A DNA stretch of 38,011 nucleotides, taken from positions 1-38,011 of the IMG/VR virus record IMGVR_UViG_3300020045_004774; one strand, written 5' to 3'. Source of the DNA: a virus (taxonomy: Duplodnaviria; Caudoviricetes). Below the pieces are notes generated by a model. That model worked only from the letters and a program-made list of their open reading frames with translations. It made no database searches and had not been told where the DNA came from. This document shows, piece after piece, positions 17,077 to 28,150 of the stretch (its first letter is position 1; the number at the start of each line of letters is the position of its first letter). A program made the position numbers and the translations under genes.

Positions 17077-18321
17077 ATGACAAATCCATTTTTTTCAATT
17101 ACCAATTTAGGTAATTCTTTTCGTGGCTTATTTCAAGGCACAGACCGATTTACAAGGGGGTTAAATATTGGTAATGATTATTATGACTTTGTTGGAAATT
17201 ACAATACGCCACAAGAAGTATATGAAACAATTTCTAACAATGAAATGAGATTGTTTAAAACTACTCCCGAAATCTATATCCCAATAATGAAGAAAGCAAC
17301 AATGTTTTCGAACGGTATTTTTCGGGTTAAAGATTATAAAACGAATGAAGTAATTGAAAACCACCCTTTGATTAAGGCACTCGAAAAACCTACGTTAACA
17401 ATGAATCGAAATGAATGGATGATTGCAAACTGCGTTAATCTCCATATCTACGGAAACAGTTACCTATACAAAAACCAACCTTCACCATTTACTAATCCTT
17501 TTAATGTGTTGTTCCCAATTTTACCTAATAGTGAAATGGTAATAAGCACAACAGGTAAAAGTTATAAAATGAGTACAAAGGATGAAATTATCAAAGGTTA
17601 CTCATTAAAAAACAATGGCGACAAATTTACGGTTGACGAAATAATCCACATGAAAGGATATAGCGAAGATGGTATTAAAGGAATGTCGGTACTTGAATCG
17701 CTTCAAATGCCTATTTCAAATGCTCGGGCTGGTTATGGCTTTAATAACGTCAATTTAGCTAAAAAAGGTGCTTTGGGTATTATTACGCCAAAAGGTGGCG
17801 ATGCAATTGGCGTTAGAAATCTTGATGAAGATGTACAAATTGATTTAGAAAGACAATTTACAGAAACGCATGGAATTTTTGACAATCAAACGCCTATTAA
17901 ATTCTCAAAACAACCTGTTGAATATCAAGATTTGAATTATCCGATTAAAGACCAAATGATATTTGAAACAATTAACCACACAATGCAAAAAGTAATTGAT
18001 GCAATTGGATTAAATGAAAATATCTTTTCTCGAGATAAACAAAGCACATTCACAAATATGAATGAAGGTCTTAAAATGGCTTACCAAGATTCAATTATTC
18101 CATTCGCTGAATTATTCTGTTTTGCTTTAAATGATTCGTTAGGGTTGTTTGATATGGGTATTTACATCGAACTTGACTATTCACATATTCCAGCATTGCA
18201 AGAAAACCAAAAAGACGTTGCGCAAAACGCTAAAATGAAAGCCGAAGCAATTCAAGGACTTGTTTCGTTGGGTTACACAACACAACAAGCTGAACAACTT
18301 TTAAATATTACACAAGAATAA
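17077..18321 (+). CDS. Portal protein (HK97 family), inverted relative to the rest of the genome
   Basis: HPLIKALEKP, NLHIYGNSY, DEIIHMK, GIKGMS.LE and AYQDSIIP motifs; start moved to ATG at 17077. Confidence 0.92.
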   Translation: MTNPFFSITNLGNSFRGLFQGTDRFTRGLNIGNDYYDFVGNYNTPQEVYETISNNEMRLFKTTPEIYIPIMKKATMFSNGIFRVKDYKTNEVIENHPLIKALEKPTLTMNRNEWMIANCVNLHIYGNSYLYKNQPSPFTNPFNVLFPILPNSEMVISTTGKSYKMSTKDEIIKGYSLKNNGDKFTVDEIIHMKGYSEDGIKGMSVLESLQMPISNARAGYGFNNVNLAKKGALGIITPKGGDAIGVRNLDEDVQIDLERQFTETHGIFDNQTPIKFSKQPVEYQDLNYPIKDQMIFETINHTMQKVIDAIGLNENIFSRDKQSTFTNMNEGLKMAYQDSIIPFAELFCFALNDSLGLFDMGIYIELDYSHIPALQENQKDVAQNAKMKAEAIQGLVSLGYTTQQAEQLLNITQE

Positions 18322-18343
18322 AAACGCAATAATTTGCCTTTTT

Positions 18344-18370
18344 AACCCACTTTAATCGGTGGGTTTTTTT
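18344..18370 (+). terminator. Intrinsic terminator for the portal gene
   Basis: AACCCAC-loop-GTGGGTT followed by a T-run, between convergent portal and terL. Confidence 0.8.
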
Positions 18371-18372
18371 GT

Positions 18373-20664
18373 TTACGACAATTTTATAACCCCAATTCGT
18401 TGTAAGTATAGTGCCACATATCTAACCGAATCTATACAATTATGAACCAATATACCATTTGCAAAATATTCATGAACATCTTCAACCATTAAATCATAAA
18501 CATCTTCAGTCCAAGTATCAATCACTTTTACATCCACAAGTTTTTCTTTTTGAATACTTGTTAACGATGAAAGTATTTCCGCATCGTGTACATTTTCTTT
18601 CAATGTCATCAAGTTTTTTATCTCGTCTATACTGAGCCTTGCATTTTCCACTACAAAATTTTGATTCGCCTTTATGTCTTGTTGTGTAATTGTTTCCGCA
18701 TTGTTGACATTTTTTATCTTCAAAAGGTCTATTAATCCAACATTTTCTACCATGTTCTTTATGCCATTCTCTACCTTCTTCGGACCTATGCCATTCTTTT
18801 GCGCTTTCAATTCCTTTTGCGTGAAAATCTTTAGCCCATTCTGGGTTATTCTTAAATCTCTTTTTTGCAGTGTGTCGCATATGAAGCGAGTTAAGGACCA
18901 AGTTGAGGTTTTCAATCCTATTGTCTGTGGGGTCATCGTTGACGTGGTGAATATCATATCCTTTTGGTATTTGTCCGTTGTAATGTTCCCAAACAGCTCT
19001 ATGAAGCCTTTTTGTACCCTTGCTAAAATACCTTTCGTCTTTGTATAAATAGTAGGTTTTTCCGTTAAATTCTTGTGTAGGAATAATACATTCCCCGCTT
19101 TTAAATTCTGAATTTGTACCCATTCGTTTTCCGTTTTAATTCTATGTGTTTCTGTTGAACACAAATATACGGTTTTTTTCGTATCGAATAGCATCGAGTA
19201 TTTATTTACTTGTTTCTTTCCGTTATGGAATTTATGAAGTACTTTTTTGTAACCTTTTGATGTTAGGACCATTTCGCCTGCTTCAATATCTTTTATTTGT
19301 TTTGGTCCATTAATCGTTTCAATTAATGTACTACCAATAAAACAGTGATTATCCTTGTCCTCAGGCTCTTCTAAAATAGTTCCATATCTATCAACTTTTC
19401 GAGAGTAATTTTCTTGTTCGTATGCGACATTCGTACTTGAACTTGTGTAATATACTTTCAAGTTCTCTAACAAATCAATACCATCAATAATACTTCCCCC
19501 TGGTTTACTCGCTGGTTCTGCGTAATCATATCCAATTCGTCTAAGTGCTGCAATTTTTCGCGGTCGGTTAGAATCGCAAATAATGGTAGATTTCTTTGAT
19601 ATTCCTAATCTATCGAAATACCATTTTACTAAACCTTCATCCATTGAATCTTCGTCCTGTTCACTTAGAATAATTCGTTCTTGTGCTTTGAGGTTTTCAC
19701 GAATCTTGTTTTCGCTTAAATAGTTTAATTCATGAATATACAAGCATCCATCTTGGTACTTAACTTCTGCAATTGCCCACGGGTCAACTTTACCCCAGTC
19801 ATTACCGATGTAAATAGGTGCTTTTATTTCTTGATATTCATGGTCGGGTATTTCCTTCCAACTAAAGATACGATTTGGTTTCTCAGATTTTTCACCTAAT
19901 CCGTACACTTGCCAATTGAACAATGAAGCTGAATTTTTATACTCATTATCTAAACATCGTAACGCTTCGTTAATTTGTCTTTTGGTAAAGTTTAACTTGT
20001 TTTCTATAAAATTATATTGTCTTACTTCATTTTCTTGAATAAGTCCATTTAAAACAATATCTGAATAACTTACAGGTTGGTAGCTTAGGATTTTACGCCT
20101 TGATTCTTCAGGGCAAAACGGATTATCTTTAAATGTAGAATCTATTACAATTGAGCGTGAATCTTTTATTAAATCCTCTACCCAATGGTCTTTTTTAGGG
20201 TTGTAATCAATGAAAATAAAATCTGCGGTTCGTTGGTCTATTTGGTTAAATGTTTCACGGCTTATCTTGTAAGGTTCGTTAGCCCACGCACAATCTTGTG
20301 TTAATCCATGTACCGTTTCTTCATCGTCTGTGCCATGAATTTCAACTGTTGAACCCGAATTATAAGAAAATATTGATTCTGTTTTATTGAAGTCTTGACC
20401 TACTTTGTAAAGTCTTTCACGCTTCAATGTTTTAATCATGTCATTTAGAACGGTTTTTTTGCAATCCGTTTTAGTATCTCGCCAAATAGTTAAACGCTTA
20501 TTCTCTTTTGATCGTGCATAAAGGTCGTAAAATTGTATTAATGAAATAGTTTTACTTGAACGTGAAGAACCACGATTAATAATATAGCGAAATTTGTTTT
20601 TACCATTTTCATCTACTTCATTAATCGCATTCCAAATCTTTTCGAATACAATTGTAACGTCCAT
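18373..20664 (-). CDS. terL: Terminase large subunit (PBSX/SPP1-like), intein-containing precursor; about 461 aa after splicing
   Basis: Walker A GSSRSSKT, Walker B CAWANE, DYNP, nuclease GNDWG..DP; DNH-CID-SVRY motif split by the intein. Confidence 0.95.
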   Translation of the reverse strand: MDVTIVFEKIWNAINEVDENGKNKFRYIINRGSSRSSKTISLIQFYDLYARSKENKRLTIWRDTKTDCKKTVLNDMIKTLKRERLYKVGQDFNKTESIFSYNSGSTVEIHGTDDEETVHGLTQDCAWANEPYKISRETFNQIDQRTADFIFIDYNPKKDHWVEDLIKDSRSIVIDSTFKDNPFCPEESRRKILSYQPVSYSDIVLNGLIQENEVRQYNFIENKLNFTKRQINEALRCLDNEYKNSASLFNWQVYGLGEKSEKPNRIFSWKEIPDHEYQEIKAPIYIGNDWGKVDPWAIAEVKYQDGCLYIHELNYLSENKIRENLKAQERIILSEQDEDSMDEGLVKWYFDRLGISKKSTIICDSNRPRKIAALRRIGYDYAEPASKPGGSIIDGIDLLENLKVYYTSSSTNVAYEQENYSRKVDRYGTILEEPEDKDNHCFIGSTLIETINGPKQIKDIEAGEMVLTSKGYKKVLHKFHNGKKQVNKYSMLFDTKKTVYLCSTETHRIKTENEWVQIQNLKAGNVLFLHKNLTEKPTIYTKTKGILARVQKGFIELFGNITTDKYQKDMIFTTSTMTPQTIGLKTSTWSLTRFICDTLQKRDLRITQNGLKIFTQKELKAQKNGIGPKKVENGIKNMVENVGLIDLLKIKNVNNAETITQQDIKANQNFVVENARLSIDEIKNLMTLKENVHDAEILSSLTSIQKEKLVDVKVIDTWTEDVYDLMVEDVHEYFANGILVHNCIDSVRYVALYLQRIGVIKLS
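18518..19123 (-). CDS. HNH homing endonuclease with C-terminal zinc ribbons, nested in the -1 frame inside the intein
   Basis: LHRAVWEHYNGQIPKGYDIHHVNDDPTDNRIENL (HNH_3-type); CQQC..CSGKC and CTRC..CGC. Confidence 0.9.
   Translation of the reverse strand: MGTNSEFKSGECIIPTQEFNGKTYYLYKDERYFSKGTKRLHRAVWEHYNGQIPKGYDIHHVNDDPTDNRIENLNLVLNSLHMRHTAKKRFKNNPEWAKDFHAKGIESAKEWHRSEEGREWHKEHGRKCWINRPFEDKKCQQCGNNYTTRHKGESKFCSGKCKAQYRRDKKLDDIERKCTRCGNTFIVNKYSKRKTCGCKSD
19162..19169 (-). promoter_or_regulatory. Candidate internal promoter (-7 TATATTTG) for the nested HNH gene
   Basis: Consensus match about 40 nt upstream of the ATG at 19123; weak -33 element. Confidence 0.45.
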
Positions 20665-20667
20665 ATT

Positions 20668-21129
20668 TTAATCTTCATCATCAATGTCGGTAGGTGGTAC
20701 TACTCGAACTTCAATTGTATTGCTCGGTAAATCTTTTCCGTTTGTTGTAACGTCAATTTTTTGATTATCTGCGTAACGTGAACTCATTTTGCCTAAAACC
20801 CATTTACGTGCATCAATTTGCAGTCTGTTACGTTGCACAATATTATGATTAATTTGCGGTTCGCCTGTATTTGGGTCAGTTGTTACGTCTTCGCCTTGTT
20901 TGTCTGCAATCTCTAAAATCTCTTCGAATATTCGGTCAGCACGCACTTCCCTCGCGCGCGTGTACGTGTCAAACAATTCTTTACTATTATTCAACTCTAA
21001 ATAAAAACTACCTCTTGGCATCCCTATTTTTTCACACGCTTTATTAAGTGGCAAAGACTCGTTTTCAATCAATGCCACTACTTCAAATGCAAGTTCTAAA
21101 TTGTTACCTTTTGGTGCTCCCATAATCAC
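20668..21129 (-). CDS. terS: Terminase small subunit (Sf6 gp1-like)
   Basis: GAPKGN, YTRARE.RAD..FEEILEIAD and RNRLQIDARKW motifs; upstream of terL. Confidence 0.88.
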   Translation of the reverse strand: MIMGAPKGNNLELAFEVVALIENESLPLNKACEKIGMPRGSFYLELNNSKELFDTYTRAREVRADRIFEEILEIADKQGEDVTTDPNTGEPQINHNIVQRNRLQIDARKWVLGKMSSRYADNQKIDVTTNGKDLPSNTIEVRVVPPTDIDDED

Positions 21130-24881: not shown

Positions 24882-25397
24882 TTAAATATATTTTACTGTT
24901 GTTTTATTTTTTCTGTAACCGTTTAGCATATTGTTTAATGCCTTCGTTTTAATTCCTAAATCTTTTGCACAAGACTCGTTACCATACCAAATCTTTAATG
25001 TAACAGAACATTGAATTGGCTTAAGTTGTGCAATTGAAATTTTATTTCTTGATTCTTGGGTGTGTCTATAACCTAAAACATCTCGTCTATGTATTGCATT
25101 TTCTTTTGGTGTACACCATTCTAAGTTTTCAATTCGGTTATCATCTCTAATTCCATTTATATGATTAACATGTTCCTTATTTAAAGGATTGTCAATAAAC
25201 GTTAAACCAATTAATCTATGAACTCTAAAGTATTGTTTTGATGTGTTTTTTATTAATGTTAATTTTTTATAACCTCTCACATCACTAAATTTTAAGATAG
25301 TATTTTTACCTTGATAAATGGATTTAATTCTACCTAAACTACTTGCTTGATAATAACCTTCATAACCAGGAATATCTTTCCAAATTTCTTCTTGCAT
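24882..25397 (-). CDS. Free-standing NUMOD4-HNH homing endonuclease
   Basis: EIWKDIPGYEGYYQASSLGRIKS (NUMOD4); VHRL...VNHINGIRDDNRIENLEWCT (HNH); HTQESRNKIS (NUMOD3-like). Confidence 0.92.
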   Translation of the reverse strand: MQEEIWKDIPGYEGYYQASSLGRIKSIYQGKNTILKFSDVRGYKKLTLIKNTSKQYFRVHRLIGLTFIDNPLNKEHVNHINGIRDDNRIENLEWCTPKENAIHRRDVLGYRHTQESRNKISIAQLKPIQCSVTLKIWYGNESCAKDLGIKTKALNNMLNGYRKNKTTVKYI

Positions 25398-27529: not shown

Positions 27530-28150
27530 TCAAAATATTAATTCTGTTTGATTAATATTTAATTCAATTGATTTAAAATTCACTTTCTTGTATCGGTTCT
27601 TTGGTCGTATTTTAAACATCCAAATCTTTTTAGGTAAACCTGTTTTAATAATAGCTTCACCACTCTTAACTGCTTCTCTTAATTTATAAGAATAATCTCT
27701 ATCAATTGATAAACTTCTAGGGTGATAAGTTCTTCCATTCCACTCAACATATTTAGTTGGTGTTGTAAGTCCTTCTAATTCAAAATTTGAAGCCTTGTAA
27801 ATAGTTCCAATATGCCCTACTGTCATATCTGAATAAGACAATACAAAATCATAATCAGTATTTGAAGAAATGTATTTAATAATTTGTCCTAGAAAATAGC
27901 TTTCACTATTGCATGGCGCATTATCTAAACAAGCCATTCTGCGTATATCAATACAATTTTTGTACTTCTTGTCATGTCTTGGTTTACCTAATACACTACC
28001 GCCTACTAATTCATTATTCATAAACATAGCGAAACAAATACTAATACCACCACCCATTGAATCTTTTTTATAATGAAATTCTTTAAAAATATGCCGTATA
28101 TCTTTGAACTTACAAATCTTAATTTCACAAGTTTTTTTATCTAGTTTCAT
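27530..28150 (-). CDS. Mom-like (GNAT-fold) DNA modification protein
   Basis: FHY, ELVGG..LG, IRRMAC.D..P.NSESYFL and LSYSD...GH.GTIYKASNF motifs of the Mu Mom family. Confidence 0.8.
   Translation of the reverse strand: MKLDKKTCEIKICKFKDIRHIFKEFHYKKDSMGGGISICFAMFMNNELVGGSVLGKPRHDKKYKNCIDIRRMACLDNAPCNSESYFLGQIIKYISSNTDYDFVLSYSDMTVGHIGTIYKASNFELEGLTTPTKYVEWNGRTYHPRSLSIDRDYSYKLREAVKSGEAIIKTGLPKKIWMFKIRPKNRYKKVNFKSIELNINQTELIF

What the first reader, a model, noticed from the sequence alone, without database searches (positions are those of the whole stretch)
18439..19344. Dual-coding intein: a complete HNH homing endonuclease gene overprinted in an alternative reading frame inside the TerL intein
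Seen in sequence: TerL residues 441-742 form an intein with intact blocks A (CFIGSTLIET), B (STETH), F (VYDLMVEDVHEYFANG) and G (VHN/C). The roughly 190 aa between the splicing halves show no LAGLIDADG or HNH motif in the intein frame and read like an off-frame K/T/I/N-rich linker. The same DNA, same strand, -1 frame (18518..19123) encodes a 201-aa protein with a clear HNH motif (LHRAVW...IHHVNDDPTDNRIENL), a helical linker and two Cys-rich zinc ribbons. This ORF starts just after block B and stops just before block F, where an intein endonuclease domain normally sits. Both frames stay stop-free for about 200 codons in very AT-rich DNA. Established: mobile inteins normally carry the endonuclease in frame as part of the excised protein. 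Inference: here splicing and homing are encoded as two separate proteins on overlapping frames, so the nuclease is made as a free protein and standard annotation would miss it. I do not know of this architecture being characterised, but I could not search the literature.
Basis: partly seen in the sequence, partly recalled or inferred. Interest (0 to 1): 0.95.

Follow-up and report, generated by a model that had tools for sequence, protein, structure and literature searches.

The report
Terminase intein with out-of-frame HNH gene
A phage DNA-packaging gene carries a predicted self-splicing protein insert (intein) whose middle also encodes, one base out of step, an intact DNA-cutting enzyme gene that likely has its own promoter and likely spreads the insert; the layout is real and common in phages, but this kind of layout is already in print.

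Summary
Confirmed. TerL (18373-20664, minus strand) holds a 302-aa intein, and the -1 frame encodes a 201-aa HNH_3 protein. It is no assembly error: of 124 non-redundant relatives of this HNH, 85 are nested at -1 in a contiguous intein and none is in frame. Selection acts on the HNH frame (dN/dS 0.26), not on the intein linker (0.98). The HNH ATG is built from the conserved intein Trp codon (47 of 47 close relatives). A Bacteroidota-type promoter motif lies upstream (26 of 47; 3.1 expected), so the nuclease is likely a separately transcribed gene. Near-identical phages lack the intein exactly, as homing predicts. The architecture is not new: a brucellaphage TerL intein with an out-of-frame HNH was reported in 2015, and other out-of-frame intein endonucleases in 2025-2026. 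This scan already holds 20 findings matching these words on other DNA. What differs here is the site (TerL nuclease motif), the HNH subfamily, the embedded start signals, and split-intein and free-standing forms of the same HNH. Splicing, expression and cleavage are untested.

The parts
18373..20664 (-). terL, terminase large subunit precursor, 763 aa
   Evidence: Pfam Terminase_3 E 4e-7 (above cut-off), Terminase_3C E 2.5e-5 (just under cut-off)
18439..19344 (-). 302-aa intein, Cys1...His-Asn, followed by Cys+1; inserted in the D-N-H|C-I-D motif at the end of the nuclease domain
   Evidence: invariant C1, T64, H67, W75, D284, H291, N296, N302 in 44 relatives; exact 906-nt-shorter allele in related phages
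19075..19344 (-). N-terminal Hint region (residues 1-90)
   Evidence: AF2 pLDDT 93-98, beta-rich; Foldseek hits to inteins, best E 8e-7; dN/dS 0.34 for Cys1 to block B
18556..19074 (-). intein linker (residues 91-263), the off-frame reading of the HNH gene
   Evidence: AF2 block pLDDT 34-75; intein-frame dN/dS 0.98 over the overlap
18439..18555 (-). C-terminal Hint region (residues 264-302)
   Evidence: AF2 pLDDT about 87-98; dN/dS 0.09 for the part after the HNH stop
18518..19123 (-). nested HNH endonuclease gene, 201 aa, -1 frame
   Evidence: phrog_15471 E 1.6e-34; dN/dS 0.26, 0.17 over codons 15-125
18878..19009 (-). HNH_3 catalytic motif (H41, H59, H60, N68, N72, H81)
   Evidence: H41, N68, N72, H81 kept in 86 of 86 nested relatives, H59 and H60 in 85 of 86; model matches I-HmuI Z 7.6, rmsd 2.6 over 70 aa
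18641..18709 (-). first Cys4 zinc ribbon (C139, C142, C157, C161), predicted DNA-binding module
   Evidence: three Cys in 86 of 86, fourth in 83 of 86 nested relatives
18530..18592 (-). second Cys-rich ribbon (C178, C181, C196, C198), optional in the family
   Evidence: present in 43 of 86 nested relatives
19121..19123 (-). HNH start codon, made of the last base of intein Glu74 and the first two of Trp75
   Evidence: sequence; A at that position in 47 of 47 clade members
19162..19169 (-). TATATTTG, Bacteroidota -7 promoter-like element inside the intein coding sequence, 46 nt before the HNH ATG; predicted transcript start about 19157
   Evidence: consensus and T-12 spacing from PMC6847099
19099..19105 (-). 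T-TTA-AAA heptamer, possible -1 slippery site (rival reading)
   Evidence: sequence; such a site in 10 of 47 clade members vs 75 of 771 background windows
18421..18438 (-). first 18 nt of the C-extein incl. Cys+1; differs sharply from near-identical empty alleles (possible co-converted patch)
   Evidence: 9 of 18 mismatches vs L208 against 36 of 387 upstream; replaced patch in X1 and X3 contigs
20668..21129 (-). terminase small subunit
   Evidence: phrog_1482 E 1.8e-22

Best explanation
The terL gene contains an intein-coding insert whose middle also encodes an intact, selected HNH nuclease in the -1 frame; the intein is predicted to splice out of TerL, and the nuclease is likely made as a separate protein from its own promoter and start codon inside the intein and likely drives homing. 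Steps: (1) shown: both frames are open and all splicing and HNH residues are present. (2) Inferred: ribosomes on the terS-terL message make the 763-aa precursor, the Hint halves fold around a junk linker and splice, restoring the D-N-H-C-I-D motif. (3) Inferred: host RNA polymerase (likely Bacteroidota) starts at about 19157 from TATATTTG and gives a 34-nt A-rich leader and the 201-aa HNH. (4) Inferred: in co-infection the HNH nicks intein-less terL alleles near the site, and repair copies the insert plus a few flanking codons, bringing the Cys+1 that most empty alleles lack. (5) Inferred origin: a free-standing, terL-targeting HNH gene landed in a mini-intein at the same site; the -1 frame prevails because it needs the fewest stop codons removed.
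For: Selection: 8 non-overlapping pairs, dN/dS 0.26 in the HNH frame vs 0.98 in the intein frame; reversed in the first 14 codons (1.25 vs 0.29). Start codon: A before the Trp codon in 47 of 47 clade members (37 are GGA; mean expectation from codon use 0.39) vs 5 of 14 outside the clade. Promoter motif TAnnTTTG in the 60 nt before block-B His: 26 of 47 vs 3.1 expected given the amino acids (max 11 in 100,000 simulations), 18 of 815 background windows and 3 of 38 other nested members. Non-clade members instead show sigma70-like sites in 11 of 35 vs 6 of 576 background. Mobility: 47 of the 48 closest TerL loci show no intein at the site, including one 98% identical in the last 120 extein residues, while TerLs of median 29% identity carry inteins of median 50% identity; IntN and HNH identities co-vary (rho 0.62), extein and HNH do not (0.12). 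Contigs in runs X1 and X3, about 95% identical in the flank, join across exactly 906 nt. Same HNH family stands free, mostly right beside terL, or between split-intein halves at the same motif. Free and split copies have 0-12 stops in the -1 frame vs 1-46 in the +1 frame. Folds.
Against: No RNA, protein, splicing or cleavage data. Counts over 47 relatives are not independent (shared ancestry), and the clade was defined after viewing. TAnnTTTG occurs 35 times on the minus strand of the window, so the single copy means little alone; 21 of 47 lack the exact motif; no clear -33 element. The window's -3 base is C, not the favoured A. The sigma70 pattern was written after seeing the sequences. The host is inferred, not known; one clade member lies in an archaeal bin (L129). 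The I-HmuI match is modest (Z 7.6; HMM E 0.034; Foldseek E 0.31). The window does have an in-register slippery heptamer. The tree is a quick, unrooted one, so the order of events is not established. Three of the 48 TerL loci were not parsed at the site.
Confidence: 0.8

Rival explanations
1. The HNH is made by -1 ribosomal frameshifting from the intein frame, as a TerL-IntN-HNH fusion, not from its own start.
For: In-register T-TTA-AAA at 19099-19105, downstream of the last HNH-frame stop; such sites in 10 of 47 clade members vs 75 of 771 background windows.
Against: 37 of 47 have no such site; the ATG is kept in 47 of 47 at a position silent for the intein; promoter motif enrichment; N-L-K codons explain the heptamer.
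Confidence: 0.07
2. The HNH is a packaging co-factor of the terminase (as described for HK97 gp74-like HNH proteins, recalled; suggested for brucellaphages in PMC4422536), kept by benefit to the phage, not by homing.
For: The family nearly always lies in or beside terL; purifying selection.
Against: 47 of the 48 closest TerL loci have no relative of this HNH within the fetched 1.8-kb flanks; patchy, extein-independent distribution; fold closest to homing endonuclease I-HmuI.
Confidence: 0.06
3. The HNH frame is a silent relic in this phage; the intein behaves as a mini-intein with a long linker.
For: No expression data; some relatives are broken (phiCD119 L043, L144, L177, L197).
Against: All catalytic and Cys residues intact; window vs its nearest relative L001 dN/dS 0.37 in the HNH frame vs 0.91 in the intein frame; promoter motif and ATG intact.
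Confidence: 0.06
4. Two compensating assembly indels hide an ordinary in-frame HNH intein.
For: No raw reads of this genome were available; one small run (X8) shows single-base losses.
Against: 85 independent clusters share the -1 nesting and 0 of 124 are in frame; strains in X4 and X7 (92-94% identical) cover most of the intein without indels; two 151-nt contigs match at 100%; three of the X8 losses sit in T6 runs.
Confidence: 0.01

Closest known systems
Brucellaphage Tb/Pr (Perisivirus) terL intein with nested out-of-frame HNH ORF8 (NC_019446; PMC4422536)
   Same: TerL host, contiguous intein, same-strand HNH gene with zinc ribbons nested out of frame; untested at the bench in the passages read.
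   Different: Site in the ATPase domain (GNRAD|C) rather than the nuclease motif; +1 rather than -1 frame; zinc ribbons N-terminal and HNH C-terminal, the reverse order; only weak similarity (BLASTP E 0.016, profile E 3e-9).
Actinobacteriophage non-canonical inteins (10.1101/2025.01.02.630785)
   Same: Endonuclease in a separate frame (endonuclease VII-like, frame 3), unstructured in-frame linker, TerL among the hosts of non-canonical forms, same invasion model.
   Different: Their HNH cases are in frame; their out-of-frame ones are endoVII-like, antisense LAGLIDADG or VSR-like; no internal promoter or start analysis in the sections read.
Cyanobacterial dnaX intein (10.64898/2026.09.14.751524; Gorbalenya 1998 as cited there)
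   Same: Overlapping same-strand ORF, low dN/dS in the nuclease frame and high in the intein frame, patchy distribution.
   Different: LAGLIDADG nuclease, bacterial chromosomal host gene.
ShiLan element in mycobacteriophage methylases (PMC11855218)
   Same: Hidden out-of-frame HNH in a stop-free insertion.
   Different: No splicing domain.
Fractured genes (Dassa et al. 2009, PMC2677866)
   Same: About 14 clusters of this HNH family sit between split-intein halves at the same TerL motif, overlapping the IntC start.
   Different: The window's intein is contiguous; Dassa's nucleases were GIY-YIG or Vsr-like.
I-HmuI-type phage HNH homing endonucleases (PDB 1u3e)
   Same: N-terminal beta domain plus HNH_3 core (Z 7.6, rmsd 2.6, 70 aa).
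   Different: C-terminal helices plus Cys4 ribbons with no clear solved match; I-HmuI is intron-encoded (recalled).

Membership tests
Class 1 intein | Cys/Ser at position 1, block B TxxH, block F Asp, terminal His-Asn, Cys/Ser/Thr at +1 | tested here: met
   C1, T64xxH67, D284, H301-N302, C+1; +1 is C or S in 85 of 85 nested relatives
Class 1 intein | Hint fold | tested here: met
   AF2 model and Foldseek hits to inteins, 37 at E<=0.001
Class 1 intein | In-frame insertion with exact empty alleles | tested here: met
   906-nt-shorter alleles
Class 1 intein | Protein splicing occurs | not testable with these tools
   needs expression
Canonical bifunctional intein (in-frame endonuclease) | Endonuclease domain in the intein's frame | tested here: not met
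   none by Pfam; 0 of 124 clusters in frame
Non-canonical intein with out-of-frame endonuclease | Complete endonuclease ORF in another frame between the splicing blocks, intein frame open | tested here: met
Non-canonical intein with out-of-frame endonuclease | Purifying selection in the nuclease frame, relaxed in the intein frame | tested here: met
   0.26 vs 0.98
Non-canonical intein with out-of-frame endonuclease | Patchy distribution independent of the extein | tested here: met
   (identity comparisons; no formal tree incongruence test)
HNH homing endonuclease (I-HmuI-like, HNH_3) | His-Asn-His beta-beta-alpha-metal core | tested here: met
HNH homing endonuclease (I-HmuI-like, HNH_3) | Cuts the element-free allele, spares its own | not testable with these tools
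   needs biochemistry
Brucellaphage ORF8-type element | Same insertion site and HNH domain order | tested here: not met
   ATPase-domain site, reversed domain order, +1 frame
Fractured gene (split intein) | IntN and IntC in separate ORFs | tested here: not met
   one contiguous ORF in the window; met by some relatives
Terminase accessory HNH (gp74-like) | Present in all phages using that terminase | tested here: not met
   no relative near terL in 47 of 48 closest TerL loci, within 1.8-kb flanks

The most novel reading that the evidence does not exclude
A single HNH lineage targets the conserved D/N-H-x-x-D motif of phage TerL and rides several vehicles at that site (contiguous intein out of frame, split intein, free-standing gene, possibly a group I intron). 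In the nested form it has rewired the intein's own splicing-domain codons into a host-matched promoter and start codon, a third layer of code, so that homing is regulated apart from terL, and it imports the +1 nucleophile by co-conversion. No paper found in my nine searches describes that embedded control or this series.
Probability: 0.5. Interest if true: 0.6.

Novelty: new variant of a known kind. Interest (0 to 1): 0.4.

Why it matters
Out-of-frame intein endonucleases are described as rare and, in the papers read, none has been shown to be expressed or to cut. This family is large (503 viral contig matches in one scan), hidden under 'terminase' annotations, and comes with a precise testable prediction for how the nuclease is made (promoter, start codon). 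Long 'degenerate' intein linkers may often hide live nucleases. The series from free-standing gene to split and contiguous intein bears on how inteins acquire endonucleases. Cultured phage TJE1 carries an intact copy.

Tried and rejected
No RNA holder was listed among sequencing runs; this says nothing about expression. No listed run held half of the words, so raw-read confirmation of this genome was not possible; X5 and X6 give the same two 151-nt contigs and may be one data set. Foldseek on the HNH model gave no match at E<=0.001. Rfam gave no hit in the window and none for the suspected intron in phage EauM-23, so that intron rests on recalled group I motifs and a downstream exon-like reading only. 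A protein search with the linker alone found one full-length precursor. The 123-aa antisense ORF 18674-19048 has no Pfam match and the antisense frames are not open in relatives: rejected as a gene. The careful tree did not finish; the quick tree was not used to claim direction, and no one-clade test was run. The Shine-Dalgarno count in non-clade members (19 of 35) is biased because starts were picked by that score; not used as evidence. L013 was dropped from the upstream analyses (motif not parsed); two short HNH rows were left out of the tree. Searches that found nothing; one search gave two unrelated papers. bioRxiv supplements could not be seen and may list out-of-frame HNH inteins.

Full report
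Observation. The window is a complete 38-kb virus record with direct terminal repeats. On the minus strand terS (20668-21129) is followed by terL (18373-20664, 763 aa), with a 302-aa intein at residues 441-742 and a 201-aa ORF (18518-19123) in the -1 frame. Pfam gives HNH_3 for the ORF (E 7e-16) and only terminase and Hint families for the long frame at E below 0.001. AlphaFold models agree: the intein has confident beta-rich ends (residues 1-90, about 264-302) around a low-confidence middle and matches solved inteins; the HNH model has mean pLDDT 91 and its best solved match is I-HmuI (Z 7.6, rmsd 2.6 over 70 residues; weak by sequence). Both frames being open is not chance: synonymous resampling leaves the intein frame stop-free in 0.035% of 20,000 trials and the HNH frame in none.

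Family. Scans with the intein, the HNH and an HNH alignment and a phage-record search (12 of its 22 hits fetched) gave 205 loci including the window. One search matched 503 viral stretches but kept only the best 80, so the sample leans towards close relatives. At 95% protein identity they form 124 clusters: 85 nested at -1 in a contiguous intein, 1 nested at +1, 16 with IntN and IntC in separate ORFs, 16 without an intein, 6 partial, and none in frame. At least 2 of the 16 split ones (L144, L177) look like damaged nested copies. The inteins inspected sit at the same D/N-H|C-x-D motif at the end of TerL. In the records of phages TJE1, phiCDHM19, Highwayman and LS06-2018-MD07 the nested gene is unannotated. 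In PAE1, Shemara and BP10 the same HNH is a separately annotated gene next to the terminase genes. In CL2 it lies between split-intein halves. An indel artefact is excluded by this conservation and by related strains without indels; run X8 shows five small losses, three single bases in T6 runs and two that sum to one codon.

Selection. For 8 non-overlapping pairs (at least 70% nucleotide identity, from 47 clade members) dN/dS is 0.26 in the HNH frame, 0.98 in the intein frame over the same DNA, 0.34 for IntN, 0.09 for the IntC tail and 0.11 for the extein. In the first 14 HNH codons the pattern flips (1.25 vs 0.29), so that stretch is intein sequence borrowed as the nuclease's N-terminus. Catalytic residues are kept in 85-86 of 86 nested copies. 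The preference for -1 has a simple cause: free and split copies carry 0-12 stops in that frame but 1-46 in the +1 frame.

How the nuclease is likely made. In 47 relatives with Trp eight codons after block-B His, the base before the Trp codon is A in all 47, forming the ATG; 37 are GGA codons, and codon use predicts A in about 39%; outside the clade it is A in 5 of 14. The Bacteroidota -7 element TAnnTTTG (consensus from PMC6847099, passages) lies within 60 nt upstream of that His in 26 of 47, in two registers, against 3.1 expected from the same amino acids, 18 of 815 background windows and 3 of 38 other nested members, two of which are from Bacteroidota genomes. The window has TATATTTG 46 nt before the ATG; the same motif precedes 6 of the other 37 starts listed, and the leaders are A-rich without evident Shine-Dalgarno sequences, so the host is likely Bacteroidota (inference). 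Other nested members show sigma70-like sites (11 of 35 vs 6 of 576; post hoc pattern). These counts are not phylogenetically independent, and the motif is common in this AT-rich genome (61 copies). A slippery heptamer is present in the window but in only 10 of 47 relatives.

Mobility. Of the 48 loci closest to the window's TerL nuclease domain, 47 show no intein and no nearby relative of this HNH; three were not parsed at the site; the +1 residue is mostly Leu or Thr. L208 is 98% identical over the last 120 extein residues yet empty, while 44 intein-bearing relatives have median identity 29% in the extein, 50% in IntN and 53% in HNH; IntN and HNH co-vary (rho 0.62), extein and HNH do not (0.12). 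Contigs from runs X1 and X3 join across exactly the intein length with Gln at +1. Against L208 the first 18 nt after the site differ at 9 positions, compared with 36 of 387 upstream. This fits recent homing with co-conversion of the flank (inference); loss in many lineages or selection for nuclease resistance could give similar patterns. A quick unrooted tree intermingles nested, split and free forms, with one well-supported group of only split and free copies mostly from Bacillota; it does not give the order of events.

What is known. PMC4422536 (passages) reports an intein-encoded HNH gene out of frame in brucellaphage terL, and NC_019446 annotates it; its site, frame and domain order differ from ours. 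The preprint 10.1101/2025.01.02.630785 (passages and sections 8 and 15) describes out-of-frame and antisense intein endonucleases and the invasion model. The preprint 10.64898/2026.09.14.751524 (whole text) shows the same dN/dS contrast for the dnaX intein. PMC11855218 (abstract, part of results, discussion) covers a hidden HNH without a splicing domain; PMC2677866 (passages) covers fractured genes; PMC11878797 (passages) shows introns in phage terL. Gorbalenya 1998 and Kala 2014 were not seen. Nine searches found no paper on this nuclease-domain family or on promoters embedded in an intein; subscription journals and preprint supplements were out of reach. Earlier notes of this scan report the same layout on other DNA (20 findings match the search words, 8 shown).

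Verdict. Real, selected and probably active; it works like, and belongs to, the non-canonical inteins with an out-of-frame endonuclease. It is a new variant by site, nuclease subfamily and embedded expression signals, not a new kind. Interest 0.4.

Noticed in passing
L049:2225-3140 (Exiguobacterium phage vB_EauM-23, MH844558): Annotated terL stops just before the conserved Asp; group I intron-like motifs (recalled) flank this family's HNH gene, and a D-A-T-R-Y exon-like reading follows. Possible unannotated intron 5 nt from the intein site; Rfam gave no hit.
   Followed up: partly
L050 (Lactobacillus phage CL2, NC_028835) 506-2771: Annotated terL ends in an IntN half; an unannotated IntC plus TerL tail overlaps the end of the HNH gene: a fractured terminase in a cultured phage.
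   Followed up: partly
L043 (phiCD119) vs L042 (phiCDHM19): Near-identical element; the phiCD119 copy is broken by frameshifts and annotated as two genes.
   Followed up: partly
split-intein relatives, 16 clusters: IntC always lies in the same frame relative to the HNH as in the nested -1 form, while IntN uses all three frames; no clear ribosome-binding site for IntC was evident.
   Followed up: partly
window 17077-18321 (+): The putative portal gene (named from position and from relatives, not scanned) lies on the opposite strand, convergent with terL, with its own TATATTTG 27 nt upstream and a hairpin flanked by T runs at about 18340-18369 between the two genes.
   Followed up: no
L001:3295-5341: The two halves of the putative portal gene match the window in opposite orientations; rearrangement or mis-assembly.
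   Followed up: no
window 24882-25397 (-): A second, free-standing HNH gene of another family (phrog_59, E 2e-41).
   Followed up: no
window 27530-28150 (-): Mom-like DNA modification protein (phrog_1384).
   Followed up: no
L034/L035 terL: A second intein near the Walker A motif with a long low-complexity linker that may hide another out-of-frame ORF.
   Followed up: no
L039 (Brevundimonas phage Poludnitsa) 2459-3031: Free-standing HNH of this family between terL and portal is unannotated.
   Followed up: no
L030:5427-5522: GP20-a RNA match.
   Followed up: no
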